In this document: positions 13,163 to 49,475 of the stretch, one piece after another
How the letters are laid out: every line of letters starts with the position of its first letter
How positions within the stretch are numbered: the stretch's first letter is position 1
NCBI RefSeq assembly: GCF_046105845.1
Contig: NZ_CP151004.1
Origin: Escherichia coli
GTDB taxonomy: Bacteria; Pseudomonadota; Gammaproteobacteria; Enterobacterales; Enterobacteriaceae
DNA length: 64,000 nt
Reading direction: 5' to 3' (one strand)
Translations under genes and position numbers: made by a program
The notes under the pieces: generated by a model
Told to the model about the DNA's origin: nothing
What the model saw: only the letters and a program-made list of their open reading frames with translations
Databases searched by the model: none

Positions 13163-13702
13163 CTTAAACACGATATTACGCCAGAAGTCACCATTTCCAA
13201 AACACAACGCCGTTGTACCGTGGGATATCTGCCCAACAGCAGCGACACGCCGGTGATCAAAATCAGCGCCAAATGGCTGAGAGAAGCGGGATTTGAGATC
13301 GGCACGGGCGTTACCGTGAAGATCCCGGAAGGTTGCCTGATCCTGCTTGCGGATAACAACGAAGTACAGGAACTGAGGAAGGAACTTTATAAGGTTAAAC
13401 AGGCTGTCTTCAATATAGAACCGGAGCGATTACGCCAGTCAGGATCTGACTTTAGTTGCCTTCTCTTTATTCTCATCATGGCTATTTGTTCTGCGGGATC
13501 AAGCTTTCCCTTTGCTATTCTCGCCTTCATATATTCAATTTGTTTCTCCAGATATGAAATCCCTGCCAGTGCGATGTGCTTCGGTATGTTCCATTTTTCA
13601 CGATATTCGTCAGCGCGTATTCCATGCACAAACCAGATATGGCGCGGTAAAAAAATGAGCAACTTGCCACACTCCAGACAGGGTATTTTTTCCCGCTTAT
13701 GA
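13163..13702 (+). CDS. SymE-family (type I toxin-like) ORF, possibly degenerate
   Basis: Residues TVGYLPNSSDTPVIKISAKWLREAGFEIGTGVTVKIPEGCLILLA align with E. coli SymE; no ATG (track start at 13220 is GTG; in-frame stop at 13160); the 3' ~250 nt lacks a stop only because it runs antisense to the MucR-like gene. Confidence 0.35.
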   Translation, partial: LKHDITPEVTISKTQRRCTVGYLPNSSDTPVIKISAKWLREAGFEIGTGVTVKIPEGCLILLADNNEVQELRKELYKVKQAVFNIEPERLRQSGSDFSCLLFILIMAICSAGSSFPFAILAFIYSICFSRYEIPASAMCFGMFHFSRYSSARIPCTNQIWRGKKMSNLPHSRQGIFSRL

Positions 13703-13758
13703 TATGCCAGAACCTCTTCACGCGTTTCGAATGGCCTGTTCCTCTCTTTTTTGTACAC
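13387..13758 (-). CDS. Ros/MucR-family zinc-finger DNA-binding protein (short form lacking the usual N-terminal domain)
   Basis: 123 aa ORF with CLECGKLLIFLPRHIWFVHGIRADEYREKWNIP, close to the Ros/MucR signature. Confidence 0.6.
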   Translation of the reverse strand: MYKKERNRPFETREEVLAYHKREKIPCLECGKLLIFLPRHIWFVHGIRADEYREKWNIPKHIALAGISYLEKQIEYMKARIAKGKLDPAEQIAMMRIKRRQLKSDPDWRNRSGSILKTACLTL

Positions 13759-19026: not shown

Positions 19027-19431
19027 CTAAGGACATATAGATGGATCATTTATTTCAAAAGAAAAATCGGACTCCATACTAGATGAGGATTTTTTCAATA
19101 AAGAGGAGATATGATATCCAGATAAAGTTTTAGAATTGTTACCATCAGATATCAAAATACTAAGTTCAGAAACAATATTTACAGGGTTTTTATTAAAAAC
19201 ATCTGACTCTCTACCTGTGTAAATAAAGTATACAATTGGCTTCCGCTCTCCGATATCAAGATGAAAATTATCTCTTACTTTACCATCATAATGTGTTGAA
19301 TTATTGACCGTCGAAATGTTAATAGATACTTTGCATGTATTTACCATGACAATGGAACAAGAATAGAATGGTTGAGATAAACATCCAGCACACAGCGTAC
19401 ATAATAAAAAAAAGAATATTAATCTAGTCAT
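19027..19431 (-). CDS. Small lipoprotein, candidate immunity protein for the upstream PAAR toxin
   Basis: 134 aa, lipoprotein signal MTRLIFFFLLCTLCAGC; 8-bp overlap with the PAAR-toxin gene; AT-rich. Confidence 0.5.
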   Translation of the reverse strand: MTRLIFFFLLCTLCAGCLSQPFYSCSIVMVNTCKVSINISTVNNSTHYDGKVRDNFHLDIGERKPIVYFIYTGRESDVFNKNPVNIVSELSILISDGNNSKTLSGYHISSLLKKSSSSMESDFSFEINDPSICP

Positions 19432-20863
19432 GAAATTTCACCCGAGATAACCATATCATTGCACATACATCGTTTTCGACAGCAACCGACCTTGCATATA
19501 GATCACTGGTGTATATATGCCCATTATAATATTTCATTAAATCTATCTCGCCAGTTCCTGGATAAACTGAATGAGGCAGTGCATATTGAGGTGGTACAAG
19601 ATTAGAGGTCCCTTTATGCTCCCATGAATACGTATTCCCACCGTAACTTTTTAATATCATATGACCAGTCTCATGGGCTACATCAAGTTTAAATTCTAAT
19701 CCAGCCTTAAAAACAGGATCCGCGCCTTTCTGATACCCACGGCCATATTCATAATACCCCCTATTGAAATAAATGTTCATACGTCCCATAAAAGCACTAG
19801 ACCTGACGCTTTCTAGATCTTGCTCCTCAATTAAATCAAAAGAATCCATGGCTGGATCAATATTTATTGATACAGAGATATTTACATTATATTTACCGTG
19901 CGGAGTAGTAATATTATTGCCAATTCCGGGATTCCTCATTCCATTTCGTGCCCAATAATACTCTATTCCATCCTTGGCAAGTTGCTTTAATTTTTCAAAC
20001 CCTACAGGTGCAATACGATCATCTTTATGACTCACACCATCATCTTCAAATTCTACTCGCCAACTGACATCAACTATTTTTTGATTCTTGTCTACTTTTA
20101 CATCAATCCAATCTTCCTCATTCGCAGAAGTTTTCAATGGATAATCAACTTTTATCATCATATCACCACATAAAGCAATCAGTCTTACGAGTAGTGATTT
20201 GCTTTTTAGCTTAGTTGTATCCAGTATGTCTTGATTACTGTAGCCATCCCATTGCCAGGCATGCTCTCCCTTATCAAAATATTTACCGGTCTGCTGTTCA
20301 CTATAAATCACTTCATTACCATCAAGCACTTCCAGAGAAAGCGCTTCAGCCTCATCGCCTTTATTTGTGATGGTAAAATCTATTTTTTCTGTATTCTTCG
20401 TACTACCACCGCTAATCATTTCTTTATAATCAGGTATATTCAATGGCGTCAGTATCTTATTACCTGATAATTTAATTCTGTAATCCAGTTTTACATCATC
20501 TGAGGATGAATCAGAACCAGAAGTCAGATCCTTTTTCGCCGACTGCGCATGTTGTTCCGCTTCACTTCCCCCGTCATCCGTCTCATACACATCATCCATC
20601 ATTGACGCAATAAATCGCGCCTTACACGGGCAACTGCTCTGACTGTCCAGCGATCCCGCCATCAGCCTGCCGTGAATATCCGTTTCCGGCACGCCGCCGA
20701 CGATAATAAACATCCCCGAATGTTTACCGCAGGTCACTCTGTCCATATCCCGCGCCTGCGGGATACCCATGATCGTATGGTCGTCCGCCCCTTCAATAAT
20801 TTTGCCGCCGCAGGTGGTCTTATCGCCCCTGACCAGAAAATAGCCTCTTCCCATCGTCATCAC
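19424..20863 (-). CDS. PAAR-domain T6SS effector with C-terminal HExxH (zinc-metallopeptidase-like) domain
   Basis: 479 aa; N-terminal PAAR-like region (GDKTTCGGKIIEGADDHT...VTCGKHSG...IIVGG), acidic/Ser-rich linker, C-terminal domain with VAHETGHM; AT-rich C-terminal half. Confidence 0.65.
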   Translation of the reverse strand: MMTMGRGYFLVRGDKTTCGGKIIEGADDHTIMGIPQARDMDRVTCGKHSGMFIIVGGVPETDIHGRLMAGSLDSQSSCPCKARFIASMMDDVYETDDGGSEAEQHAQSAKKDLTSGSDSSSDDVKLDYRIKLSGNKILTPLNIPDYKEMISGGSTKNTEKIDFTITNKGDEAEALSLEVLDGNEVIYSEQQTGKYFDKGEHAWQWDGYSNQDILDTTKLKSKSLLVRLIALCGDMMIKVDYPLKTSANEEDWIDVKVDKNQKIVDVSWRVEFEDDGVSHKDDRIAPVGFEKLKQLAKDGIEYYWARNGMRNPGIGNNITTPHGKYNVNISVSINIDPAMDSFDLIEEQDLESVRSSAFMGRMNIYFNRGYYEYGRGYQKGADPVFKAGLEFKLDVAHETGHMILKSYGGNTYSWEHKGTSNLVPPQYALPHSVYPGTGEIDLMKYYNGHIYTSDLYARSVAVENDVCAMIWLSRVKFHD

Positions 20864-22497
20864 TCCTTATGCTGCGTATCACACAGTACCGCTGCCCGTA
20901 CCGGATCGATTGTCACCAGCGTTCCCAGCAGGATTTCCATTTTTCGGTTCAGCAGGGCTTTATCCGCATAGCGGTGCGCCCGCAGGCGCAGCAGTTTCAG
21001 TTGCCGGGCTTTTACCTCAAACAGCAGTTCCGGCTCCCACTGCGTCAGCGTTATTCCCTGTGCGGCGGTATCCAGTTCTTCCAGCAGCAGGAGTGCCATC
21101 TCGTTTTTACCGTACTGTTCCGCCACCCGCGCCATCAGCAGCCGCAATAACAGGCGCTGTCGTGCCGTGGTGATGCCCGGACGGGTCTGTATCCAGCCCA
21201 GCGCCGCTTCCACGCCCTGACTGTCTGCCATCTCCAGTGCTTCCGGCTCCAGCGCCAGTACGTCATTTGTGGCGTCGTCTGTCGGTACAGCGGCTTTCCC
21301 CGCAAGCCATGCGCCGTCTTCCCGCATCATGACCTGCTGCGCTATCCAGTTGCGCGTCACCTCATCGGCGAACGGTGTGCCGTCGTTCCATGCCAGATTT
21401 TCCAGCCCCGGCAGGCGTTCCAGCAGTAACGCCAAGTCCTGACGGATAACGGCTGTCCACCTGTCCCACGGTACGCCCGCCTTAGTCAGCGCCTGATGCA
21501 GATACCACTGAATGTCCAGCCAGAAATGGCTGACGCCGGTGCTGAACATCAGGTCGGCCTGCTCCAGCAGTTCCGTCCAGTTCTGCTGGGCATACAGCCG
21601 CTTAAGCTGATTGCGTGACTCGGTGCGCGGCGGGGCCAGCCGGGTTTTGCCGTCCACATCCGGCGGCAGTTCATGCACCGTGTCCCAGCGCAGGGTTTTC
21701 ATCAGCCGGTGCGCCGAAAGCCAGCCCTGCGGCTGTTCATTCAGATAACGGGCCAGCACTTTCGCCTGGTCGAGCAGGTCACGCCCGGAGGTGATGGTCT
21801 GTACCTGTGGCGCATCCACCGGGGATGACGGTGCAGGAACGCTGCTGCTGTTTTGCGGCACCACTGCGTTCATCCCTCCCGACTGCGCCAGACGCGATTC
21901 CAGCGCGTTAATCAGCGGCATCAGGGAGGGGGAATGCTGGTCTTCGGGCCATGCAGTGAAGGAAACCGTCAACTGACTGAGGGCAGCAACAATGTTCGCA
22001 AAATCCTCTTTTGCCACTTCCGGGTAGCGGGCAAGGCTGTCGAGCATCTTTTCCCCCGCCAGCCACTCCAGCGCCATTTTCCGGCTGGCCGGTCGCGAGG
22101 GCAGCAGTTGCGTACCGAAGCGTTCCACCAGTCCGGTCAGCAGCGCCAGTCCTTCCGCCAGTCCGCGCTCACCGTCGCGGTGCAGTCGCGCCCAGATGTA
22201 GTAAGTGGCGATGCGCACGTCTTTTGCCTGCGTCAGCAGCAGGGATTCGGCAAGCTGGCAGATGAGGTCCGTATCCGCGCCGGAAAGTTTGTTCATCTCG
22301 TCGCGGATACGCAGAAAATCGTCGTGGTAGCCGGGGTCTTCCCCGACCGGCGTATCTGTCGTCACCGGCAGCAGCCATGTCTGCCACAGTGCCGCCTGTG
22401 CTCGCGCCACATCCAGTGCATCCCGGTCGGCAAAACAGCTACGGGTCAGCTTTTGCAACAGTTCACTCATCGGCGTCTTCCCCGTATTCTTCCGCAT
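20860..22497 (-). CDS. tssA: T6SS protein TssA (ImpA-family cap protein)
   Basis: About 536-545 aa (possible start at MSELLQKL); TssA-like; immediately downstream of tssM. Confidence 0.8.
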   Translation of the reverse strand: MRKNTGKTPMSELLQKLTRSCFADRDALDVARAQAALWQTWLLPVTTDTPVGEDPGYHDDFLRIRDEMNKLSGADTDLICQLAESLLLTQAKDVRIATYYIWARLHRDGERGLAEGLALLTGLVERFGTQLLPSRPASRKMALEWLAGEKMLDSLARYPEVAKEDFANIVAALSQLTVSFTAWPEDQHSPSLMPLINALESRLAQSGGMNAVVPQNSSSVPAPSSPVDAPQVQTITSGRDLLDQAKVLARYLNEQPQGWLSAHRLMKTLRWDTVHELPPDVDGKTRLAPPRTESRNQLKRLYAQQNWTELLEQADLMFSTGVSHFWLDIQWYLHQALTKAGVPWDRWTAVIRQDLALLLERLPGLENLAWNDGTPFADEVTRNWIAQQVMMREDGAWLAGKAAVPTDDATNDVLALEPEALEMADSQGVEAALGWIQTRPGITTARQRLLLRLLMARVAEQYGKNEMALLLLEELDTAAQGITLTQWEPELLFEVKARQLKLLRLRAHRYADKALLNRKMEILLGTLVTIDPVRAAVLCDTQHKE

Positions 22498-25400
22498 CCT
22501 TCATACTCCTGCCGGTCAGAAATACCTGTCCCGGCAGGCGGAAATTTTTCAGCTCCAGCAGCGCCATCGGCCCTTTGCCCTGTTCAACCCGCAGCAGGTA
22601 ATTCAGCGGCAGGCCGTCCTGCGCTTTCCACACCACTTTAAAGGTACTGCTGTCCACCGGTGTCACCTGCGCCTGTTCCAGCAGACGAATTAGGCTCCAG
22701 CTTCCCCGGTAATCCGCCAGTATACGTTCCATCGCCTGCGTGCTGGTCCAGCTCAGCGATGCGCCGGGTTGCCACTGTTCATCCGGCCAGTTAAAACGCT
22801 GCCAGCGTTCTTTCTGGTTGAAATACTCCAGTTCCTGCCCGTCAATCACCAGATGTGTTTTCATCACGTCTCGGGCCGGTTTTGCCCGCAGTTCAAAATG
22901 TATTCCGGCATCGCCGCTGGCAAAGGCGGTGTCAGCCACGTCACGCAGGCGGTTCAGGGCGCGAATAAAGTCCGGGTTGACCGTCAGCCCCTGCGTGTTC
23001 ATGGCGTCCGCCACCCAGTAGCGGCCTTCACGTTTCAGAACGCCGGAAAGGTTGGCGGCAATAAACTGGTTGATGCGCCCGTCATCGCGCAGATACTGCG
23101 CCAGCAGGGGGAGGGAAGCATCGTTCTGTGAGGCTTTGAACGGGTAGCGACCAGCGAAGTCCTGATTCCAGTGGCTGACAATCGCCCGCTGCCACTGGCG
23201 GTTCAGGCTGTCCGCCGCAGGCGTCAGCACCTGCCGCCACGACTGCTCCACCGGGCGGACGAACAGCGCCTGACCGAAGCCACTCCATTCCTCGCCCAGA
23301 CTGGCGGCGATTAACCGTCCGTAGTCGCGGGTGTCGGTGAGGTCAACGGTTTTGCCCTGCAAGACTGTCTGCGCCAGTTGTTGGGTCATCTCCTGTGGGT
23401 CGGGGGCGTTGGTCACCTGTTGCAGTTTGAGGCGCACGCGGGTGACGCGGGTCAGATACGTTTGCAGGCTGAGTTGCGTATCGCCACCACCGCCTCCGGC
23501 CTTATCGCCCAGCAAACGCAGCAGCGGCGCGAAGGTTTTATCCAGTGGCCCGACAGGCACGTCGTCTTCACGGGATTGCTGCGGCGTTTTCTCCTTGCCG
23601 TTAAACAGTTCCTGTGCCGATTTCGCCAGCGAGTCCGACAGGCCACGGTTTTCCCTGCCAGCCGCCGCCTGCCAGGCGAGGGTGTCCGTCAGCGCAATCA
23701 GCGGCGACTGACGGGCATCGGCCATCAGCGTCAGCTGGTCGAGAATGCCGGAGAGTGAGTCTTCCTTTTTCCAGCGAATGCTGTTGAGAAACGCCAGCCA
23801 GCTTCCGGCAAAGTCGGTAAAGTAGCGTGAGGTGAGACGGTTACGCAGCGTATCCGGCGAGATATCCGCAGAGGTATCCTGCTGGCGGTCGCTGAGTACC
23901 CAGTCGATTTCCTCGCGCCGCGCCGTCACCACCTGCTCGATGGCTTCCCTGACCTGTCCTTCCCACGCCTGACGGGTGAACATCCCCGGCACCGTCTGTT
24001 CCGTACTGAAAAGAGATTCGGTGAGCGTATCCCCGGTCATGTCCGCCAGCGTCATATCGGCGTAGTTGCGGGACACCTGTTGCAGTACGTTCTGGTAGAG
24101 GGTGTTTTCGGCATTGCGCACACCAATCTGGCGCAGCAGGATTTTACGCACCGCGCCGGTCAGTTCCGGTGGCGGCGAGGTTTTCCACTGCGGGTGTTCC
24201 GGCAGGTTCGCCATCCAGAAGGTCAGCAGTGACGGCAACACGCTCTGACGCACACCTTCCGGGATATTTTCATAGCGCAGGCCGTCCGCCATCAGCGTGG
24301 TACTGAAAAAGGCAGCGTCGGCCTTTTCCGGGCGGGAAGTCATCAGCAATGCCTTAAGCTGCTTATAGCGTTGTTCACCAGTGGCGGTACGCTGAGGACT
24401 GTTGGGCGGCAGCGCGACAAAGGCGTTCAGTTGCTGTTGCAGATGGTCAACGGCCACGTCGCGCACCAGCCGGTTTGCCGCCTGTGCATAGCCAGGAAAG
24501 GCGGCGGCGAGCAGTTGCTGGTTACGTTCAAGGCCAAAACGCTGATACCACGGCGCACCTTCGCGGATACGATATTGCAGGCGCTCCAGTTCGCCCTGCA
24601 GGGTATGCAGCGCCACCAGTTGTTCAGACAGCGGCAGCCGGGTATCAAGCGCTCGTGCAGTCTGGATGCTGGTTTCCTGAACAAGCGCGCGGTTGGCGAA
24701 GAAAGAGGTCGTCATTCCGGCCCCCCATATCGCCAGCATGCAGATGCCGCTTATCAGCGCGGCGCGTAGCCACGGAAAGCCCACTGTACGCCCCCGTGCG
24801 TTATCGCCGGTCACGCCCGCCCAGACCGGTGACGGCAGCCACGCATGAGGTGCGGCCTCCGGTACGGCGGTAAGCGGCGGGCTGAACATCAGACCGCGCA
24901 GGCGCAGGGAAGAGAATGCGCCGCCTGCCAGCAGCGGTTTCAGGACGGTCTGCCAGTGAGCGATACCCCGCTCTGCAAGGGTATGAGCCAGACGCAGCAG
25001 GAAATCATGGCGGTTATCGGTCAGCAGTTGCGACATGCCCTGTTCCGTCAGCGGCAGGGTTTGTGCTTCCAGCATTACAGCCAGTTGTTCCGGGGGACAG
25101 CGTTCCGGCAGCAGGCAGCCGACGCTTTGCAGAGGGCGTCCGGTCTGATAATCACCGTTGTCACAGACCTGCCACAAATAGAGTGGGGCCTGAAAACCGA
25201 GTCGCTTACTGCCGTTTATCAGTTCGCGCCAGCCTTTGTCGAGTTGCGCTGTCTGGCGGCTCTGTTCTTCTGTCAGCGCCCAGATGATGCCATCCAGCGG
25301 ACGGCTGCGACGCAGTTTTTTTAAGGCGGTCAGCAGTGTGACATCAGGCTCCGCTGATGGCCTGCCGCCATATATCAGCACCGTGTGGTCGCCCTCCAGC

Positions 25401-25900
25401 CAGTGTTGCCCGGTCAGCCCCGGCGCGATGGCTTCTGCCTGTTCAGGCTCGCCGGTCACCTGCAGCAGGCGGACTTTACGCCGCCAGAACGGACCGTAGC
25501 GGTCGCGCAGGAAGGCGGCGAGTTCCACCATTGCCGGATGACGGCTGTCGGCTTTCTTTGTCGTCACCGCCCGATAGTCATCCCCGGCGGCAAGCTGTCT
25601 GCGGAGTTCAAAGTTCTGTACGGCAGCGTGGCGGTTCAGCAGATGATAAACCCCCATGATAATCAAAAAGACCACGCCTGCGGCAATCACGCCCGCCATC
25701 CAGTACATCTGCTGCGGGCTGCCCGGCTCGACGCCCAGCAATGCCGGTTTACGGTGAATGAGCGTACAAAGTGCAACCACGACAGCCACGGTCATGACGA
25801 TTACTGGCCCTGAGAGCGAACGGGGCCGGAGACGGCTTAATCCCGGAACCACTATGATGCCTCCTGCGGTAAAACGAACGGCGACACCACGGTCGCCCAT
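22463..25900 (-). CDS. tssM: T6SS membrane-complex protein TssM (IcmF-like)
   Basis: Over 1100 aa with N-terminal transmembrane helices; ORF-track N-terminus (to 26113) is over-extended; real start near 25900 or 25795 (uncertain). Confidence 0.85.
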   Translation of the reverse strand: MGDRGVAVRFTAGGIIVVPGLSRLRPRSLSGPVIVMTVAVVVALCTLIHRKPALLGVEPGSPQQMYWMAGVIAAGVVFLIIMGVYHLLNRHAAVQNFELRRQLAAGDDYRAVTTKKADSRHPAMVELAAFLRDRYGPFWRRKVRLLQVTGEPEQAEAIAPGLTGQHWLEGDHTVLIYGGRPSAEPDVTLLTALKKLRRSRPLDGIIWALTEEQSRQTAQLDKGWRELINGSKRLGFQAPLYLWQVCDNGDYQTGRPLQSVGCLLPERCPPEQLAVMLEAQTLPLTEQGMSQLLTDNRHDFLLRLAHTLAERGIAHWQTVLKPLLAGGAFSSLRLRGLMFSPPLTAVPEAAPHAWLPSPVWAGVTGDNARGRTVGFPWLRAALISGICMLAIWGAGMTTSFFANRALVQETSIQTARALDTRLPLSEQLVALHTLQGELERLQYRIREGAPWYQRFGLERNQQLLAAAFPGYAQAANRLVRDVAVDHLQQQLNAFVALPPNSPQRTATGEQRYKQLKALLMTSRPEKADAAFFSTTLMADGLRYENIPEGVRQSVLPSLLTFWMANLPEHPQWKTSPPPELTGAVRKILLRQIGVRNAENTLYQNVLQQVSRNYADMTLADMTGDTLTESLFSTEQTVPGMFTRQAWEGQVREAIEQVVTARREEIDWVLSDRQQDTSADISPDTLRNRLTSRYFTDFAGSWLAFLNSIRWKKEDSLSGILDQLTLMADARQSPLIALTDTLAWQAAAGRENRGLSDSLAKSAQELFNGKEKTPQQSREDDVPVGPLDKTFAPLLRLLGDKAGGGGGDTQLSLQTYLTRVTRVRLKLQQVTNAPDPQEMTQQLAQTVLQGKTVDLTDTRDYGRLIAASLGEEWSGFGQALFVRPVEQSWRQVLTPAADSLNRQWQRAIVSHWNQDFAGRYPFKASQNDASLPLLAQYLRDDGRINQFIAANLSGVLKREGRYWVADAMNTQGLTVNPDFIRALNRLRDVADTAFASGDAGIHFELRAKPARDVMKTHLVIDGQELEYFNQKERWQRFNWPDEQWQPGASLSWTSTQAMERILADYRGSWSLIRLLEQAQVTPVDSSTFKVVWKAQDGLPLNYLLRVEQGKGPMALLELKNFRLPGQVFLTGRSMKDAEEYGEDADE

Positions 25901-27066
25901 GAATAATGTCCACCCTGAACGCCGCTGAGCGTCAGTTGGGGTTGTTGTAAATGCACTGACGCCAGCGCCGCAGCGGCGACGGACAGCCACGGCGCAGCCG
26001 GGCCGGAGCGCCCCAGAAAGGCATCCAGCTCGTACATCAGGGCTTCCTGAGCAAACGGCTGGTTCAGGCTTAACAACGCGGCACGCTGTTCCCTGTCCAG
26101 TTCGGCAGTCCACATGCCGGATATTGCATCTGGCTGCACCGGCATCCAGTCCAGCGCCTGTGCAATGCCTGACACCATCATCTCTGTATCAGTGATACGT
26201 TCAGGACGATGCAGCAGGGCCAGCGGCGTCAGCGCGGTTTGCGTCAACCGGTTTGCCAGCAACAGCGCGGTGGCGGATTCTGCCGTCCGTTCCGGGTTCT
26301 TCGGTTCAAGTCGTACGGAAATCACCAGCAGTACGGCCTTTTCCTGAATAAAGTTGTCCAGCCAGTCGTCCACGGCGGCCAGCCCCGGCTCCGGGGCAGA
26401 AAACAGACGGGCTTCCGGGAGTCCGGCTTTTTGCCATTCGTCCTGCCAGATAGCCATAACCGTTGACTCAGAAAGCGACGTACTGGTTTCTAAAAGCACG
26501 TTGATATGAAAATCATCGGGTAGCAGCGTCAGTTGCAGCCTGATATCGCTGAACAGACGGGAAAAAACTTCGGATAGACGTCCGGTAACCGGTTTATTGG
26601 TTAATACAGGGATGACACTGCGACGCACAGTATCTTCTCCGCGCAAATCAGCGTAAGTATTCAACACCTGCTGACGCGCCAGAAATGCTGTTGTAGTTTC
26701 TGCAACGGAATCACCATTCAGCGCGGTTTGTACGGAAAAACTGAGTATCTGCAACGCCCGTCGTCCCCGTCGCGTTTCCTGCAAAATCACCTCTTCCCGG
26801 CGCTTATTCCAGGCATCAGCCCGAATGTACTGCGTGATAAAAAACAGCCAGCGAACTGAAGCAACCAGCGACCAGATAAAGGCAGGCACACCACAGGCCA
26901 GCCCCCAGAAATACGGGCCGTTTTTTGCCAGTTCATCGCTGGCAAATAATGAAGTCAGGGCCACACCTGTGGACAGCATCAGTAATAAGGCTGACAGCCA
27001 TTTAATGCGGGCTGGCGGTGTGGGATAGGGTTCTGCGTCGGGAATGGCATGGAGTCGAACAGGCAT
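25852..27066 (-). CDS. Hypothetical inner-membrane protein (two N-terminal transmembrane helices) upstream of tssM
   Basis: 404 aa; hydrophobic segments LSALLLMLSTGVALTSLFA and GLACGVPAFIWSLVASVRWLFFI; GC-rich like the T6SS core; no family recognised. Confidence 0.5.
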   Translation of the reverse strand: MPVRLHAIPDAEPYPTPPARIKWLSALLLMLSTGVALTSLFASDELAKNGPYFWGLACGVPAFIWSLVASVRWLFFITQYIRADAWNKRREEVILQETRRGRRALQILSFSVQTALNGDSVAETTTAFLARQQVLNTYADLRGEDTVRRSVIPVLTNKPVTGRLSEVFSRLFSDIRLQLTLLPDDFHINVLLETSTSLSESTVMAIWQDEWQKAGLPEARLFSAPEPGLAAVDDWLDNFIQEKAVLLVISVRLEPKNPERTAESATALLLANRLTQTALTPLALLHRPERITDTEMMVSGIAQALDWMPVQPDAISGMWTAELDREQRAALLSLNQPFAQEALMYELDAFLGRSGPAAPWLSVAAAALASVHLQQPQLTLSGVQGGHYSWATVVSPFVLPQEAS

Positions 27067-27126: not shown

Positions 27127-27504
27127 TTACTCTGATACATTTATGGTATATATTTTGCCAAACCGTCCTCTGCCACCACCACCTATGGAGAATCCTCCGA
27201 TTTCAATGACTATCGCCCCTTTTACAACAGGGATACCCTGAACAATAAGGCAACTATTTTGGTCTGGCTCAAAAACATCAATAGTCAAACCCGAATTCTC
27301 AGGCCTGAAATCTTTCAATGGAAAAAAAGGTACAGGCCCAACTCCTCCTGAAATCTCGATTTTTGCATAGTAACTCTGACCTAATTTTGCATCAGGCAAG
27401 GAGTCTGGGGAAACAGTAGTTTTTGGGATGATTAGCATATGTAAACATCCAGTTAGTGATATTGATAATGAACATATGAGTAAAAATTGAATTGTCTTTT
27501 TCAT
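27127..27504 (-). CDS. Small lipoprotein (candidate immunity protein)
   Basis: 125 aa; MKKTIQFLLICSLSISLTGC lipobox; AT-rich; in the cargo block downstream of the second vgrG. Confidence 0.5.
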   Translation of the reverse strand: MKKTIQFLLICSLSISLTGCLHMLIIPKTTVSPDSLPDAKLGQSYYAKIEISGGVGPVPFFPLKDFRPENSGLTIDVFEPDQNSCLIVQGIPVVKGAIVIEIGGFSIGGGGRGRFGKIYTINVSE

Positions 27505-28397
27505 GACTTGTTAGTGTCAATGTCAATATAAACCTGATTGGATCTAATGTTAAATTTATCTTCAAGTTTTTCACCCGACATATCAAGATTTAGCAGTAAT
27601 TTTTTAATTCCATCGTCGTTATTATCACCTAAGCATGAATTATCTGGTTCGAGGTGGCTATTATCTTTATTAAAGAAGCATATGTATTTCTGGCTCAATA
27701 GATTAAACATTTTTTTATAGATGCGCTGCCGAACAAGCCATTGTTCATTGACAAACGGATATTCAAGAGTACCTACCTTGTAACGCCGTAAGCCCGGCGG
27801 AAAAGCATATAAAGATTTATTCAAATAAATACTGACAACATACTTTTCCCCGGATTTAATCTCGAACCAGTTTCCAGAATCAGGATCGTCATCATAGCCA
27901 TTACAAAATGAACCCAGAAAATCCAGTCTTGAGTTATCAGTAATAATAAGAAAGTCTTGTTTACATGATGAGGTATATGCCATGTCTTGTTTATTTTTTT
28001 TAAAAAAAGTCAGAAAAATATCAGGAAGATAGAATGAATGGTGGCTTTTATTTTCAAATTCTATAGTCATTACAACTTCTTTTTTAGATTTTTGCTCTGC
28101 AAATAAACGGATAAACATGTTGATTTCAGACTGTAGCTTTTTATTTTCTTTATCATCCAATAAGTATCCTGGTGAGAGGAAAACATACTTCTCATCATCA
28201 CGTAATGGATAAAAAAAAGGTGAGTCAGTTACTATTCTGCTTTCCCCATAACCATAACCATACTTCTTAAAAACCAGTAAGTCATCGGCAATTGAATTAA
28301 GTGAAAACAGCAATAAGAAACAAAAAATTGCATAATTAATAAATTTACTAAATGTATGCAAAATAACCTCCTTCAATAAAAAATCAAAAAAAAACAC
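27501..28397 (-). CDS. Hypothetical exported protein (candidate immunity protein)
   Basis: 298 aa; N-terminal hydrophobic signal-like segment (YAIFCFLLLFSLNSIADD); very AT-rich; 4-bp overlap with the downstream lipoprotein gene. Confidence 0.45.
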   Translation of the reverse strand: MFFFDFLLKEVILHTFSKFINYAIFCFLLLFSLNSIADDLLVFKKYGYGYGESRIVTDSPFFYPLRDDEKYVFLSPGYLLDDKENKKLQSEINMFIRLFAEQKSKKEVVMTIEFENKSHHSFYLPDIFLTFFKKNKQDMAYTSSCKQDFLIITDNSRLDFLGSFCNGYDDDPDSGNWFEIKSGEKYVVSIYLNKSLYAFPPGLRRYKVGTLEYPFVNEQWLVRQRIYKKMFNLLSQKYICFFNKDNSHLEPDNSCLGDNNDDGIKKLLLNLDMSGEKLEDKFNIRSNQVYIDIDTNKS

Positions 28398-28448: not shown

Positions 28449-29252
28449 TTACTCGGGTGGTGGTGGGGGATTATTATCAACTATAATTTTTAAATCCTTA
28501 CTCATGTCCTCTTCCACAGATTTTTTTATATCTATTAAAATCTCTTCATTCAGAGCTATCTGAAAATATTTCTCAACATTATAAGCACTTCTGAAAACGG
28601 CCTGATTGTGTTGACTAACCATTGTTTTTGCAGCAGCCAAATGAGCATCACCACTCATAAATGCCGGTTTCCCTTGCGCATTCATATCATGTGTGCTCAT
28701 TCCACCACCAATACCACCTTTGCCGGTCCTACAAAAATGAGACATTTCATGACACAGCGTTGAAACCTGAGAATCAACACCACATAATGGTTTGTCCTTA
28801 AACTTTCCAGCTATAAAAATATGATAATCTTTATCAATAAATTCATTAACTCTGGCAGTGAAATTCCCACATACCGTATTATTAATATAATAGCAAGTTA
28901 ACACTCCATCCTTATCATATCTGAACATTTGATTATGAATTGTTTTAATCCTCTTGATACCATCCTGCATTATTAACAATGCAGTCTGTTTAGTTTCATC
29001 ATCATCTCCTATCAATTCATCACCTTTGGTGCCAAATATTTTATAAAACTCGCTTATCTCTTTTTCCTTCCCCCCCTTATTCCAACCCTCAAGAGAATGT
29101 TCGCGAATCTCAAGAACTTTTTCTTGGGCTTTGTGTGCTCGTAATATCATCTCTTTAAATTTATTAGTAATAACAACTTCAGCGACACAAATCTCTACAG
29201 TAGCTGGAGCTGGAGCTGGCTTGCCGTTTGATATTTTATTTCCCATATACAT
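28449..29252 (-). CDS. Candidate T6SS effector with HExxH metallopeptidase-like motif
   Basis: 267 aa; LCHEMSHF motif; Pro/Ala-rich ends; 7 bp downstream of vgrG copy B; AT-rich. Confidence 0.5.
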   Translation of the reverse strand: MYMGNKISNGKPAPAPATVEICVAEVVITNKFKEMILRAHKAQEKVLEIREHSLEGWNKGGKEKEISEFYKIFGTKGDELIGDDDETKQTALLIMQDGIKRIKTIHNQMFRYDKDGVLTCYYINNTVCGNFTARVNEFIDKDYHIFIAGKFKDKPLCGVDSQVSTLCHEMSHFCRTGKGGIGGGMSTHDMNAQGKPAFMSGDAHLAAAKTMVSQHNQAVFRSAYNVEKYFQIALNEEILIDIKKSVEEDMSKDLKIIVDNNPPPPPE

Positions 29253-39181: not shown

Positions 39182-40891
39182 TTATTTCACGTCCTGACAG
39201 GCGTCAGAACGCGGAACAAGACTGATTTCGACGCGCCGGTTGACTGCCCGGCCCTGTGGCGTATCGTTGGTCGCCGCAGGCTGGCTCTCACCCAGTCCCT
39301 GTACGGCAAAACAGGTGGCCGGGATGTCGCTGGTCTGCAGCATCCAGTTACGCACCGCTTCGGCACGTCGCAGCGATAACTGCTGATTGCTTTTTTCGTC
39401 GCCGGTGGCGTCGGTATATCCGGCCACGAGGATAAGCCAGCCCGGTTTTGCCCGGATGTTCACCAGTGCGTCCACCAGCACTTTTGTCGAGCCGTCTTTC
39501 AGGCGGGCCTGTCCGACGTCAAACAGCGACATACTGTCAAGACGCACGGTCTGTGCCTGAAGCGAGGCTGTCACTTCCATTTTTTGCTCAGGCGGACGCC
39601 AGTCACGAATGGCGCGTAATACCGGCTGGCGGATTTGTTCACCGGGGTATAACCCCAGACCGAGACGCAGTGGCTCTCCTTCCCGGTAATACCCATCGAG
39701 CATGACCGCATCGTCTTTCAGCACCGACAGACGACGGGCTTTGGTGATAAATTCCTCCGCCGGAACGGCATAAAACTGGTGCAGATCATCACCGATATGC
39801 CGTAATAACTGGCGATTCGCCGTGGCTGACAGACACAGCGCGGCGATACCCGCCGCGGTGGTGATGCCCAGCATGGTCACGCAGGCCCGCCGCAGCGGGG
39901 TAAAGCCCGACTGACGCGGCAACCGCCGTAACAGGGCATCCGGAAACGGTAGCGTGGCGTCTGTGCCGGTGTCCGCGATATCCGTCGTCAGGCCGGTTCT
40001 GGCGGTGATCCACACTTGCCACAGGTTGTTATCCACTGCAGGCAACGAGGGGACCAGCCCCACGGCCATCGCCAGTGGCGGACATTTCGTTTCCGGGCCG
40101 TTCAGTGCCGCCAGCACATTAAGATTCAGCCACTGCATCAGGCTTTCGGCTTTCAGCAGGTAACAGAGTGGCTGGCTGCGCTCCTGTGTGCTGGTCTGCG
40201 TGAGCCACTGCGCAGGGGAGGTAGTCTCAGCAGACGTCGCTACCTGAATTTCGCCGCCGGTACAGATAAGCCACGGCGAATGCGCCTTCTCCGGCAAGGG
40301 CGAGCCAGACAGCCCGCTCCAGAGAAGCCACGGCGAATGCGCCTTCTCCGGCAAGGGCGAGCCAGACAGCCCGCTCCAGAGAAGCCAGGGGACGTTTACG
40401 CCCGCCCGGCGACGCACTGTCGCCATACTGTGGGCGAACCGTCGCAGTTGCCCGGCCAGAACCGCCACATCCCGGTGTATGCCGGGCATGACGGTATACG
40501 CCACGGCAAGCTGCGATGCCCACGCCGGGCGAAGGGTCAGTAATCGCTCCGCCTGCGCCACAAGCTGTTCTTCATCAGAAACATGCAGATACAGCCCTTC
40601 TGAAACCTGCCGGACCGGGCTGTCAGTGAACAGGCGCGCCGACATATCGCCACAGACCAGCACTACCGGTTGTCGGTACGTTTCCGGCGGCAGCGATGAC
40701 AACCCGGCATCGCCGGTCATCTCCGTCCACGCCTGCCTGCGCCGGTAAATCAGCAACGCGGCAACCGCCAGAACGATAGCCGCCGCCCCGGCCCATCTCA
40801 GTACGCCAGACGGACTGATAAACACCGACCACAGCACCAGCAGTAACACCATTCCCCACAGCACGATGGCCTGTTTCAGCGTGTTCCTCAC
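39182..40891 (-). CDS. tagL: T6SS accessory membrane protein with C-terminal OmpA-like peptidoglycan-binding domain (TagL-like)
   Basis: 569 aa; N-terminal transmembrane segments; C-terminal OmpA motif (LVAGYTDATGDEKSNQQLSLRRAEAV...NRRVEI); between tssL and hcp. Confidence 0.8.
   Translation of the reverse strand: MRNTLKQAIVLWGMVLLLVLWSVFISPSGVLRWAGAAAIVLAVAALLIYRRRQAWTEMTGDAGLSSLPPETYRQPVVLVCGDMSARLFTDSPVRQVSEGLYLHVSDEEQLVAQAERLLTLRPAWASQLAVAYTVMPGIHRDVAVLAGQLRRFAHSMATVRRRAGVNVPWLLWSGLSGSPLPEKAHSPWLLWSGLSGSPLPEKAHSPWLICTGGEIQVATSAETTSPAQWLTQTSTQERSQPLCYLLKAESLMQWLNLNVLAALNGPETKCPPLAMAVGLVPSLPAVDNNLWQVWITARTGLTTDIADTGTDATLPFPDALLRRLPRQSGFTPLRRACVTMLGITTAAGIAALCLSATANRQLLRHIGDDLHQFYAVPAEEFITKARRLSVLKDDAVMLDGYYREGEPLRLGLGLYPGEQIRQPVLRAIRDWRPPEQKMEVTASLQAQTVRLDSMSLFDVGQARLKDGSTKVLVDALVNIRAKPGWLILVAGYTDATGDEKSNQQLSLRRAEAVRNWMLQTSDIPATCFAVQGLGESQPAATNDTPQGRAVNRRVEISLVPRSDACQDVK
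40270..40383. repeat. Perfect in-frame 57-bp tandem duplication (2 copies) inside tagL
   Basis: gccacggcgaatgcgccttctccggcaagggcgagccagacagcccgctccagagaa occurs twice back-to-back, encoding SPWLLWSGLSGSPLPEKAH twice. Confidence 0.9.
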
Positions 40892-40903
40892 TCACGACTC
40901 CCT

Positions 40904-41569
40904 TTAACGCAGGCTTTGCGGCAGCAGTTCATCTACCAGTACATTCAGCCAGTGGTGTAGCCCCCACCAGACGCCCGCCAGTAGCAGCGCCAGTGTTACC
41001 AGCCAGAAAAACGGCGAATGCAGCAAAGGGTGCTGACGGGTGGATAACGGCACGTTCAGTACCGCCGTTTCCGGCAGCACGCCAAATGGCGCGACCTGCC
41101 CGTTGAGCGTCGAAATAAGCTGGTCGCGCTCCGGGGCCACCGGATCCTGATAACGCCCGCGAAATCCCAGCAGCAGGACACGGTGAAAGCAGGTCAGCAC
41201 AGCCTGTGCAGGTGCGGGCTCCTGCAACACCTGCTTCATCCGTTCGTACAGCAGCTCGCCTGCCTGCAGGGTGTTGAAGAAATGCGACTGGAGTGGATCC
41301 TTCATCCAGATGGCCTGACCGTCGTCCATGCCGCCACGGCTCAGGACCGTTTCGTCCAGCAGGGCGCACTGTGCGTAAGTTATGTGCTCCACGCTCTCCC
41401 GGCTGAACCCGGCATCTTTCAGGCGTTCGCGGACCCCTTCCACCTGCCGCTGGCAGTGGCGATACAGCTCCATACCGTGACGCACGGTGGTTCCCTGACG
41501 CAGTTCCACCACCGTCAGAAACGTGTCGCGCAGCAGCGCGTCGATATTGATATCCGTCTCTTTTTTCAT
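40904..41569 (-). CDS. tssL: T6SS membrane-complex protein TssL (DotU-like)
   Basis: 221 aa; cytoplasmic DotU-like domain with C-terminal transmembrane helix (FFWLVTLALLLAGVWWGL). Confidence 0.85.
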   Translation of the reverse strand: MKKETDINIDALLRDTFLTVVELRQGTTVRHGMELYRHCQRQVEGVRERLKDAGFSRESVEHITYAQCALLDETVLSRGGMDDGQAIWMKDPLQSHFFNTLQAGELLYERMKQVLQEPAPAQAVLTCFHRVLLLGFRGRYQDPVAPERDQLISTLNGQVAPFGVLPETAVLNVPLSTRQHPLLHSPFFWLVTLALLLAGVWWGLHHWLNVLVDELLPQSLR

Positions 41570-47719: not shown

Positions 47720-47916
47720 CGGGATGGCCAGATTTGCGCCGGTGATATATTCAATGCCTCCGCAATCAACCGCTCACCTTTCGGCCAGTGGCTCCTGAGT
47801 GCATTTGCCAGCGTACCGGAGGCCAGCCCGGCTTTGCGGGAAACCGCTGCCAGCGACGTTCCCTGTTTTTTCAGTGCCGCGATAATATCTGCGGGGTGCC
47901 AGTCCTGCTGCATCAT
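47659..47916 (-). CDS. Ner/Nlp-family small DNA-binding protein
   Basis: From MMQQDWHPADIIAALKKQGTSLAAVSRKAGLASGTLANAL...; Ner-like helix-turn-helix; start overlaps the integrase stop. Confidence 0.55.
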   Translation of the reverse strand: MMQQDWHPADIIAALKKQGTSLAAVSRKAGLASGTLANALRSHWPKGERLIAEALNISPAQIWPSRYRWAESTLSVLLIIPVSSS

Positions 47917-49137
47917 ACTGCCCTCCCACAAACCAGCCGTTCGGACGGGATACCACATACACGCTGGCTCCACCACGCCATCACGTCGGTTCTCTGCTCA
48001 AGATAGGTCGAGCGGTTATAAGCGGCGCGCGTCTGATTAGTATCCGCATGAGCCAGTACAGCTTCTATCACATCAGGGGAAAATCCGGCCTCATTCAGCG
48101 TGGTGCTACCCAGCGCCCGGAAACCATGTGACACCAGCTCCCCGCAATACCCCATACGCCGTAGTGCCTTATTGACCGTTTCGCTATTCATTGGTTGCGA
48201 GGGCTTAACCCGACCCGGAAACAGGAACGGCGAGTGTCCACTTATCGGTTTAAGTTGCTCCAGTATCCACAGCATTTCATCAGTCAGGGGCACCAGATGC
48301 TCACGGCGTTTTTTCATACGCTCAGCCGGAATAGTCCATAGCTTTTTCTCCGTATCAATCTCACGCCACATGGTGCCTGACGCTTCTCCGGGGCGCACCA
48401 GCGTCAGCAACTGCCACTTAATCAGATAACGAGTCATCAGCGATAGATTGGTGGTTTCAATCCGCTGTACCAGCTCCGGCAGGCGTTCCGGGCGGATAGA
48501 CGCCATATGCTGTTTTTTCGGCTTCTCAAAGACCTTACCGATGGTCGAGGCTGGATTCGCATCAAGCAGGCCGGAATTGACAGCAAATACCATCACTTCG
48601 TTGATACGCTGGGTTAGACGACGCAGGGTTTCCAGCGCACCTCGTGCCCGGACCGGCTCAAGGGCGGCAATCAGAGTATGTGCTTTCAATTCAGCTACCG
48701 GCATCTGTCCGATTGACGGAAGAACATCCCGTTCCATCGAACGCCAGATATCATCTGCATGCACTTCTGAAATGCCACTGGTCTTTTTAATAGCAAACCA
48801 TCTTGTCGCCACATTGATAAACAGGCTGTCGATTGCTTTCTTTTCCTGTTCTGCGGCTTCCTGCTCCAGCTTTTTCGGATCTACACCCTGAGCCAGCAGA
48901 CCAAGATATTCATCATGTACTGCGGGCAGCAGCAAGAGTTACAGCAGGATAATAACCCAGCGTGATATTGGTACGGGCAGTGGAGTTTGGACGCTGGTAA
49001 CGAAAACGCCAGATTTTCTTCCCGGAAGTACGAACAGAAAGCGTCAGACCATGCCCGTCAGGCAGGTCGTAATCTTTATCGGCGGGTTTTGCTTTTTGTA
49101 CTGCGGCAGCAGTCAGCAGGCGGCGGGTAATGGTCAT
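47913..49137 (-). pseudogene. int: P4-type tyrosine integrase, interrupted by a frameshift
   Basis: N-terminal 74-aa ORF (48913..49137, arm-binding-like domain) and C-terminal 340-aa ORF (47913..48935, catalytic domain) lie in different frames with a junction near 48915-48935. Confidence 0.8.
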
Positions 49138-49398: not shown

Positions 49399-49475
49399 TG
49401 GCGGAACGGACGGGACTCGAACCCGCGACCCCCTGCGTGACAGGCAGGTATTCTAACCGACTGAACTACCGCTCC
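49399..49475 (-). tRNA. aspV: tRNA-Asp (GUC)
   Basis: Reverse complement reads GGAGCGGTAGTTCAGTCGGTTAGAATACCTGCCTGTCACGCAGGGGGTCGCGGGTTCGAGTCCCGTCCGTTCCGCCA. Confidence 0.97.

What the first reader, a model, noticed from the sequence alone, without database searches (positions are those of the whole stretch)
40270..40383. Perfect 57-bp in-frame tandem duplication inside tagL
A 57-bp unit is repeated twice with 100% identity, inserting a second copy of SPWLLWSGLSGSPLPEKAH into the TagL region between the membrane segments and the peptidoglycan-binding domain. Perfect identity suggests a recent slippage event. It changes linker length in a protein that anchors the T6SS to the cell wall and could vary between strains.
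Basis: seen in the sequence. Interest (0 to 1): 0.4.

Follow-up and report, generated by a model that had tools for sequence, protein, structure and literature searches.

The report
Recent 57-bp in-frame duplication in tagL
A real, recent 19-amino-acid in-frame duplication, found in only a few E. coli isolates, sits in the cytoplasmic domain of the type VI secretion accessory protein TagL, not in its cell-wall linker; it is an ordinary slippage polymorphism of uncertain, probably mild, effect.

Summary
Bases 40270-40326 and 40327-40383 are identical, and the period-57 identity spans 40268-40387. The duplication is in frame in a minus-strand gene (39182-40891, 569 aa) with TagL architecture, inside a complete T6SS-1 cluster.

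The duplicated 19 residues (aa 168-205) lie between TM2 and TM3, which is the cytoplasmic domain. They are not in the periplasmic linker to the peptidoglycan-binding domain, so the reach to the cell wall is unchanged.

The allele is rare:
- None of 741 complete E. coli genomes carrying the gene has the junction.
- Homologues are almost uniformly 550 aa.
- The exact 569-aa protein is on record (WP_409023519.1) and occurs in two other independent assemblies that differ from the window by 2-3 SNPs over 13-22 kb.
- An otherwise identical one-copy allele also exists.

The one-copy sequence has the motif TGGCTTnTCTG twice, 57 bp apart, and the junction lies within the exact TGGCTT. This is the pattern expected from slipped-strand misalignment.

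AlphaFold models show that the unit is one core beta-strand plus the following loop of a GTPase-like domain. That loop varies in length across the family. In the two-copy model the second copy loops out and the fold is kept. Whether function is affected was not tested. Interest is low.

The parts
40268..40387 (-). Whole duplicated tract: two perfect 57-bp units (40268-40324, 40325-40381) plus a trailing 6-bp microhomology. It encodes aa 168-205 (PWLLWSGLSGSPLPEKAHS twice) and the next PW(L).
40270..40326 (-).
   Evidence: identical to 40327-40383
40327..40383 (-).
40325..40330 (-). Novel junction: the middle AAGCCA (TGGCTT on the coding strand). The same hexamer also lies at 40268-40273 and 40382-40387. 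The crossover must lie inside it, because the base on each side comes from a different parent repeat.
39182..40891 (-). tagL-type gene, 569 aa with a GTG start. The one-copy allele is 550 aa.
40745..40882 (-). N-terminal transmembrane hairpin (TM1 about aa 7-25, TM2 about aa 32-49)
   Evidence: hydropathy; AF2 helices 3-24 and 29-58
39887..40744 (-). Cytoplasmic domain (aa 50-335) with a predicted GTPase-like fold. It contains the duplication.
   Evidence: topology from PMC8253398
39824..39886 (-). TM3 (aa 336-356)
39236..39526 (-). OmpA/Pal/MotB peptidoglycan-binding domain (Pfam PF00691, aa 456-552). It is unaffected by the duplication.
40904..41569 (-). tssL (DotU, short form), immediately upstream
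38633..39124 (-). hcp, immediately downstream

Best explanation
This is a genuine, recent, lineage-restricted, in-frame tandem duplication in the tagL gene of an otherwise complete E. coli T6SS-1 cluster.

Shown:
- The ancestral one-copy allele carries two imperfect direct repeats 57 bp apart: CCcTGGCTTcTCTG and CCgTGGCTTaTCTG. Each encodes a Pro-Trp-Leu motif.
- The duplication junction lies inside the exact TGGCTT core.
- The duplicated 19 residues lie in the cytoplasmic domain between TM2 and TM3.

Inferred:
- The event was slipped-strand misalignment during replication, or the equivalent unequal sister-strand exchange, between the two short repeats.
- In AlphaFold models the unit corresponds to one core beta-strand (WLLWSGLS) plus the loop that follows it, in a GTPase-like alpha/beta domain.
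- Because the two copies are identical, one copy can occupy the sheet while the other is extruded into a lengthened loop. That loop already varies in length across the family.
- The most likely outcome is therefore a folded TagL with a roughly 31-residue floppy loop. The allele would be near-neutral or mildly impaired, with peptidoglycan anchoring geometry unchanged.
For: The duplication is real, as independent assemblies show:
- The exact 569-aa protein is in NCBI (WP_409023519.1; the UniRef100 entry name says n=18 E. coli) and occurs on 3 contigs.
- Two other assemblies (GCA_044249515.1 and GCA_018015415.1) carry the same 1710-bp gene. They align with the window without gaps over 21.7 kb and 13.3 kb, with 2-3 mismatches.

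It is recent and arose once:
- A 550-aa protein identical apart from the 19 residues exists on at least 5 contigs. Four of them have a DNA sequence identical to the window gene once one unit is removed.
- No complete E. coli genome has the junction, out of 741 of 5426 that carry the segment.
- There were no hits in JGI metagenome contigs.
- No three-copy allele was found, and no two-copy version of four other common alleles.
- Homologue length is almost always 550 aa.

Origin by slippage:
- Microhomology lies at both ends and at the junction.
- The exact 6-bp core is present only in the PWL...PWL allele group. It is interrupted (TGGCTT/TGGTTT) in the common allele.

Location in the protein:
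- Hydropathy places the TM segments at aa 7-25, 32-49 and 336-356.
- The published topology puts the region between TM2 and TM3 in the cytoplasm (PMC8253398).

Structure:
- The one-copy domain model has pLDDT 88.7 and pTM 0.88. The duplicated unit is strand 120-127 plus the loop 128-138, in domain numbering.
- The two-copy full-length model has pLDDT 87.9. Copy 1 (aa 169-176) is in the sheet, aa 184-201 have pLDDT below 50, and the rest of the fold is retained.
- The loop varies from 6 to 24 residues among 51 family members. The connector before the strand is fixed at 5-7 residues.

State of the system:
- All 13 core T6SS genes, plus PAAR and two vgrG genes, are open reading frames in the window.
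Against: - No read-level data were available to confirm the duplication directly.
- AlphaFold is insensitive to destabilising changes, so a retained fold in the model does not show that the protein is stable.
- The extruded copy carries a hydrophobic, strand-forming WLLW segment. The resulting loop of about 31 residues exceeds the longest natural loop seen (24).
- The strand itself is well conserved (P168 in 41 of 51 sequences; W188 just after the loop in 49 of 51).
- Persistence of the allele in a few near-identical isolates does not show function, because E. coli lineages tolerate T6SS loss (PMC10711316).
Confidence: 0.7

Rival explanations
1. The origin is the same (a real slippage duplication), but the extra strand and loop misfold or destabilise the TagL cytoplasmic domain, or block its contact with TssL. 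The allele would then be a functional null and a first step of T6SS-1 decay in this lineage.
For: - The duplicated unit includes a conserved core beta-strand.
- The extruded copy is hydrophobic, and the loop becomes longer than any natural one seen (31 versus at most 24 residues).
- T6SS decay is common in E. coli. The closest complete genome has tssM annotated as frameshifted, and lineage-wide tssM disruption has been published (PMC10711316).
- In EAEC, TagL is required for T6SS function (PMC8253398).
Against: - The reading frame is kept, and every native residue is still present in a usable register.
- AF2 keeps the fold at high confidence.
- The insertion falls at the one place in the domain where the family tolerates length changes.
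- No other gene of the cluster shows a lesion.
Confidence: 0.25
2. The duplication is an assembly or sequencing artefact and is not present in the organism.
For: No reads could be inspected. Tandem repeats are a known source of assembly errors.
Against: - The identical 1710-bp gene is present in two other independently deposited assemblies.
- The protein appears under several NCBI accessions.
- The repeat tract is only 120 bp. By general knowledge, not tested here, this is shorter than ordinary short reads.
- Assemblers tend to collapse tandem repeats rather than expand them (general knowledge).
Confidence: 0.02
3. The repeat is an adaptive or reversible length switch, like a contingency locus, that tunes or toggles T6SS activity through gain and loss of the 57-bp unit.
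For: - Perfect tandem repeats can expand and contract by slippage (general knowledge).
- One-copy and two-copy alleles coexist on almost identical haplotypes.
Against: - Only one- and two-copy states exist. No three-copy allele was found.
- The duplication was not found on other allele backgrounds.
- None of 741 complete genomes carries it.
- The unit is in frame, so copy-number change cannot switch translation on and off.
- The tract shows no special DNA fold (z = 0.53).
Confidence: 0.03

Closest known systems
TagL (SciZ, EC042_4528) of the enteroaggregative E. coli Sci-1 T6SS
   Same: - It has the same architecture: an N-terminal TM hairpin, a cytoplasmic domain, a third TM segment, and a periplasmic linker followed by an OmpA/Pal/MotB peptidoglycan-binding domain.
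- The gene lies next to tssL.
- The peptidoglycan-binding domain matches the EAEC TagL crystal structure 7BBA at E = 1.3e-44.
- The five residues needed for wall binding in EAEC TagL (N494, L497, S498, R501, A502) have invariant counterparts with the same spacing (N502, L505, S506, R509, A510 in two-copy numbering).
   Different: - It belongs to a T6SS-1 cluster at tRNA-Asp (aspV), not to Sci-1.
- The normal length is 550 aa, whereas EAEC TagL numbering in PMC8253398 reaches at least residue 572.
- This allele carries an extra 19 residues in the cytoplasmic domain.
- The interaction with TssL was not tested.
Tandem duplications caused by slipped misalignment between short direct repeats (a classical mutation class in E. 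coli; general knowledge, e.g. S. Lovett's work on misalignment at repeats)
   Same: - The one-copy allele has short imperfect direct repeats (10 of 11 bases, with an exact 6-bp core) exactly one unit apart.
- The junction lies inside the exact core.
- The two copies are perfect.
   Different: Nothing in the sequence departs from this class. The mechanism itself (replication slippage versus unequal exchange) cannot be told apart from the sequence.
Engineered tandem sequence duplications in T4 lysozyme (Matthews laboratory; recalled from memory, not checked here)
   Same: A duplicated secondary-structure element is accommodated when one copy takes the native position and the other loops out. The AF2 two-copy model shows this.
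   Different: Here the element is a beta-strand plus a loop in a membrane-protein domain. The evidence is a prediction only.
Phase-variable (contingency) tandem repeats
   Same: It is a perfect tandem repeat inside a gene for a surface or competition system.
   Different: - There are only two copies, the unit is long (57 bp), and it is in frame.
- No copy-number series was found.
- The repeat cannot shift the reading frame.

Membership tests
TagL (T6SS accessory peptidoglycan-anchoring inner-membrane protein) | Encoded within a T6SS cluster, adjacent to tssL | tested here: met
   tssL (DotU, E = 7.5e-41) ends 13 bp upstream. tssK and hcp flank the pair, and the cluster holds all core genes.
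TagL (T6SS accessory peptidoglycan-anchoring inner-membrane protein) | Polytopic topology: two N-terminal TM segments, a cytoplasmic domain, a third TM segment, then a periplasmic domain | tested here: met
   Hydropathy peaks lie at aa 7-25, 32-49 and 336-356. AF2 gives long helices at 3-24, 29-58 and 332-375. The sidedness is taken from the published EAEC topology and was not measured.
TagL (T6SS accessory peptidoglycan-anchoring inner-membrane protein) | C-terminal OmpA/Pal/MotB peptidoglycan-binding domain with the wall-binding residues | tested here: met
   PF00691 hit at E = 1.2e-17. 7BBA (EAEC TagL peptidoglycan-binding domain) matches at E = 1.3e-44. N, L, S, R and A are invariant with the same spacing.
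TagL (T6SS accessory peptidoglycan-anchoring inner-membrane protein) | Direct interaction with TssL and requirement for T6SS activity | not testable with these tools
   This needs two-hybrid or co-purification assays and secretion assays.
Slippage-type (microhomology-mediated) tandem duplication | Short direct repeats in the parental sequence, spaced by exactly one unit, with the junction inside the shared bases | tested here: met
   The one-copy alleles L004-L008 carry TGGCTTcTCTG and TGGCTTaTCTG 57 bp apart. The junction reads CCG-TGGCTT-CTCTG.
Slippage-type (microhomology-mediated) tandem duplication | A parental (unduplicated) allele exists that is otherwise identical | tested here: met
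   The 550-aa protein P0002 (MCN2720813.1) is on record. Removing one unit from the window gene gives the L004-L007 gene with 0 differences.
Contingency / phase-variable repeat locus | Variable copy number among closely related strains, with an on/off or graded effect | tested here: not met
   Only one- and two-copy states were seen. There is no three-copy allele and no junction in 741 complete genomes. The unit is in frame.
TRAFAC-class GTPase (for the cytoplasmic domain that holds the duplication) | GTPase-like alpha/beta fold | tested here: inconclusive
   [not shown]
TRAFAC-class GTPase (for the cytoplasmic domain that holds the duplication) | Walker A / P-loop GxxxxGK[ST] and other nucleotide-binding motifs | tested here: not met
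   The sequence after strand 1 is VVLVCGDMSARLF, and the family consensus is VVLVCGDxxxxLF, with no GK[ST]. No Pfam NTPase family matches. It is therefore at most a pseudo-GTPase.

The most novel reading that the evidence does not exclude
The duplication could lengthen the loop after strand 5 of a previously undescribed pseudo-GTPase domain in TagL. In real GTPases this position carries the G4 base-recognition motif. The change could alter how TagL engages TssL/TssM. Because perfect 57-bp repeats can be lost again by slippage, it could also act as a low-frequency reversible modulator of T6SS-1 assembly in this lineage.
Probability: 0.04. Interest if true: 0.45.

Novelty: new member of a known kind. 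Interest (0 to 1): 0.15.

Why it matters
On its own it matters little. It is one more natural example of a microhomology-mediated in-frame duplication, in an accessory gene of a secretion system that E. coli lineages often lose.

It has two modest uses:
- It marks a small clone. The 28-mer across the junction is a specific identifier.
- It is a natural insertion mutant that probes the TagL cytoplasmic domain, whose structure and role are uncharacterised. If the two-copy allele still supports secretion, the loop after that strand is dispensable for function. If it does not, the cytoplasmic domain is shown to be essential.

The correction of the location also matters. The duplication cannot be used to argue about the distance between the T6SS and the cell wall.

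Tried and rejected
- **Periplasmic-linker reading.** Rejected. Hydropathy and the published topology place the duplication between TM2 and TM3.
- **Recurrence or a copy-number series.**
  - The junction search in 5426 complete genomes found no place covering at least 80% of the query.
  - The exact 28-mer gave 0 hits in JGI metagenome contigs.
  - Exact look-ups of a three-copy protein and of two-copy versions of four other common alleles were all absent.
  - These look-ups are narrow, because they need an exact full-length match.
- **Hairpin-promoted slippage.** The tract folds no better than shuffles (z = 0.53).
- **Homology of the TagL cytoplasmic domain to the TssM cytoplasmic domain.**
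  - phmmer against 1.84 billion representatives found only TagL-architecture proteins.
  - hhalign of the TagL profile against the window's TssM, and against a 32-sequence TssM alignment, gave E = 0.12-0.13 and probability 0.5%.
  - The result is not significant, although the aligned segments are the structurally equivalent ones. It remains a lead only.
- **Pfam annotation of the cytoplasmic domain.** No family is shared among the 39 members, even at E up to 10.
- **Foldseek against AFDB50.** This library was unavailable.
- **Plus-strand ORF 40016-40543 (175 aa).** It also contains the repeat, but it lies wholly antisense to a conserved gene and has no support. I did not treat it as a gene.
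- **Source genome.** I could not identify the window's source genome or its sequence type. No complete RefSeq genome has this tagL haplotype, and the best match is 99.1% identical over the 311-bp query (34 differences across the whole gene).

Full report
**1. Observation**

- Bases 40270-40326 and 40327-40383 are identical (57/57).
- The period-57 identity runs without a mismatch from 40268 to 40387. That is 120 bp: two units plus six further bases.
- Tandem Repeats Finder calls it at 40263-40387 (period 57, 2.2 copies, score 243). The only other tandem repeat in the 64-kb window is a weak 24-bp one.
- The 28-mer across the new junction is unique in the window and absent from 100 shuffles.

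**2. Gene and context**

The repeat lies in a minus-strand ORF, 39182-40891 (569 aa, GTG start).
- The duplication is in frame and reads ...GVNV-PWLLWSGLSGSPLPEKAHS-PWLLWSGLSGSPLPEKAHS-PWLICTGG....
- The C-terminus is an OmpA/Pal/MotB domain (PF00691, aa 456-552, E = 1.2e-17).
- The five residues that EAEC TagL needs for wall binding (N494, L497, S498, R501, A502; PMC8253398) have invariant counterparts with the same spacing across 51 family members.

The gene sits between tssL (DotU, 40904-41569) and hcp (38633-39124) in a cluster whose reading frames are all open. The cluster holds tssA, B, C, E, F, G, H (clpV), J, K, L and M, two vgrG genes, a PAAR protein and a second tssA-like gene. It is inserted next to tRNA-Asp and has an integrase gene beside it. 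This layout matches the E. coli T6SS-1 locus described with tagL and two tssA genes in PMC10711316. The gene is therefore a TagL-type gene.

**3. Position in the protein**

Hydropathy gives three membrane segments, at aa 7-25, 32-49 and 336-356 in two-copy numbering. The AlphaFold model gives matching long helices. The published topology of TagL is two N-terminal TM segments, a cytoplasmic domain, a third TM segment, and then the periplasmic domain (PMC8253398).

The duplicated residues (168-205) therefore lie in the cytoplasmic domain. The linker between the membrane and the peptidoglycan-binding domain (about aa 357-445) is untouched.

**4. Distribution**

- Of 5426 complete E. coli genomes, 741 carry the segment. 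Every sampled full-coverage match spans about 250 bp in the record, which means one copy.
- A junction-spanning query found no genome covering at least 80% of it, under settings that would also detect diverged alleles.
- The junction 28-mer is absent from JGI metagenome contigs.
- Among the best 120 protein clusters, length is almost always 550 aa.
- The exact 569-aa protein is nevertheless on record (WP_409023519.1, HBB8114193.1, HFX4494642.1; the UniRef100 entry name says n=18 E. coli) and lies on three contigs.
- Two other assemblies carry it, GCA_044249515.1 and GCA_018015415.1. They are collinear with the window, without gaps, over 21.7 kb and 13.3 kb with 2-3 mismatches. The gene itself is identical in one and has one synonymous change in the other.
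- An otherwise identical 550-aa protein (MCN2720813.1) lies on at least five contigs. Removing one unit from the window gene reproduces four of those genes exactly.
- A three-copy protein, and two-copy versions of four other common alleles, are not in the 15-billion-protein collection.

Together these results indicate one recent event in a small clone. They argue against an assembly artefact.

**5. Origin**

On the coding strand the one-copy allele reads CCC-TGGCTT-C-TCTG ... (57 bp later) ... CCG-TGGCTT-A-TCTG. This is an imperfect direct repeat (12 of 14 bases, with an exact 6-bp core) that encodes the Pro-Trp-Leu motif at the start of two successive strands. The junction in the two-copy allele reads CCG-TGGCTT-C-TCTG, so the crossover lies inside TGGCTT.

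This is the pattern expected from slipped-strand misalignment or unequal sister-strand exchange between short direct repeats (general knowledge). The exact 6-bp core is present in the PWL...PWL allele group (the window, O158:H23 and ECC-1470). In the common allele it is interrupted (TGGCTT/TGGTTT, as in IHE3034). The tract has no unusual single-strand fold (z = 0.53).

**6. Structural meaning**

The cytoplasmic domain has no Pfam family. It has only 122 relatives among 1.84 billion cluster representatives, nearly all with the TagL architecture.

In this model the duplicated unit is a core strand (WLLWSGLS) plus the loop that follows it.
- Across 51 family members this loop varies from 6 to 24 residues (12 in the one-copy allele here).
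- The connector before the strand is fixed at 5-7 residues.
- The full-length two-copy model (pLDDT 87.9) puts copy 1 in the sheet. It leaves aa 184-201 at pLDDT below 50 and keeps everything else.
- The simplest reading is that one copy is used and the other loops out, giving a loop of about 31 residues. That is somewhat longer than any natural loop seen.

**7. Function**

Function is inferred only. Points in favour of tolerance:
- The frame is kept.
- All native residues remain available in a usable register.
- The insertion falls at the one length-variable site of the domain.
- The rest of the cluster is intact.

Points against tolerance:
- A conserved core strand is duplicated.
- The extruded copy is hydrophobic.
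- AlphaFold does not report stability.
- E. coli lineages readily lose T6SS function (PMC10711316). The closest complete genome has tssM annotated as frameshifted.

I put a near-neutral or mildly impaired allele first. A null allele is a serious rival at about 0.25. An artefact or an adaptive switch is unlikely.

**8. Comparison, novelty and score**

The gene meets the testable defining features of TagL. The TssL interaction could not be tested. The mutation meets the defining features of a slippage-type tandem duplication and fails those of a contingency locus. It is a new example of a well-known kind of mutation in a known kind of gene.

- Interest is low (0.15).
- The most novel reading not excluded is a reversible modulator acting through a pseudo-GTPase loop. 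I rate it at about 4%.
- The one thing worth following up separately is the predicted GTPase-like fold of the TagL cytoplasmic domain and its possible kinship with the TssM cytoplasmic domain. Profile comparison did not support that kinship (E = 0.13).

Noticed in passing
[not shown]
   Followed up: partly
window 22463-26113 (minus strand; tssM) compared with tagL 39887-40744: By eye, the cytoplasmic domains of TssM and TagL share a pattern, for example RLGFQAPLYLWQ versus RAGVNVPWLLWS. hhalign aligns the structurally equivalent segments but is not significant (E = 0.12-0.13). This TssM also lacks a canonical Walker A (LLQVTGEPEQAEAI) and has no ImcF-related_N hit.
   Followed up: partly
window 33296-35785 and 29259-31760 (minus strand): There are two vgrG genes, about 94.7% identical over 2.25 kb. 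Each is followed by ORFs with no family match (32412-33302, 31805-32422, 28449-29252, 27501-28397), which may be effector/immunity pairs. The near-identical one-copy relatives L004 and L005 differ in this part of the cluster.
   Followed up: no
L001 1-1783 (E. coli O158:H23 NZ_CP076709): The closest complete genome has its tssM (ImcF-related) annotated as frameshifted, and another cluster ORF as well. The window's tssM ORF is open. This points to independent decay of the same T6SS-1 in a relative.
   Followed up: no
window 19424-20863 (minus strand): A 479-aa protein has an N-terminal PAAR motif and a long C-terminal extension with no family hit. It may be a specialised effector.
   Followed up: no
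window 13387-13758 (minus strand): A small ORF with a Ros/MucR-type regulator domain lies at the far end of the T6SS cluster.
   Followed up: no
window 47913-48935 and 49399-49475: An integrase gene lies next to tRNA-Asp, at the boundary between the T6SS island and the dnaQ/rnhA side. A second tRNA-Asp and tRNA-Ala/Ile of an rRNA operon lie at 57.6-61.4 kb.
   Followed up: no
protein P0016 (726 aa, from a 12.7-kb NCBI contig): In this TagL homologue the first 270 or so residues appear twice, and the two copies come from different alleles. It looks like a chimeric assembly rather than a second kind of natural duplication.
   Followed up: no
window 40016-40543 (plus strand): A 175-aa antisense ORF also spans the repeat and so carries its own duplicated 19-residue, arginine-rich peptide. 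It lies wholly inside conserved tagL on the opposite strand, and nothing supports it as a gene.
   Followed up: no
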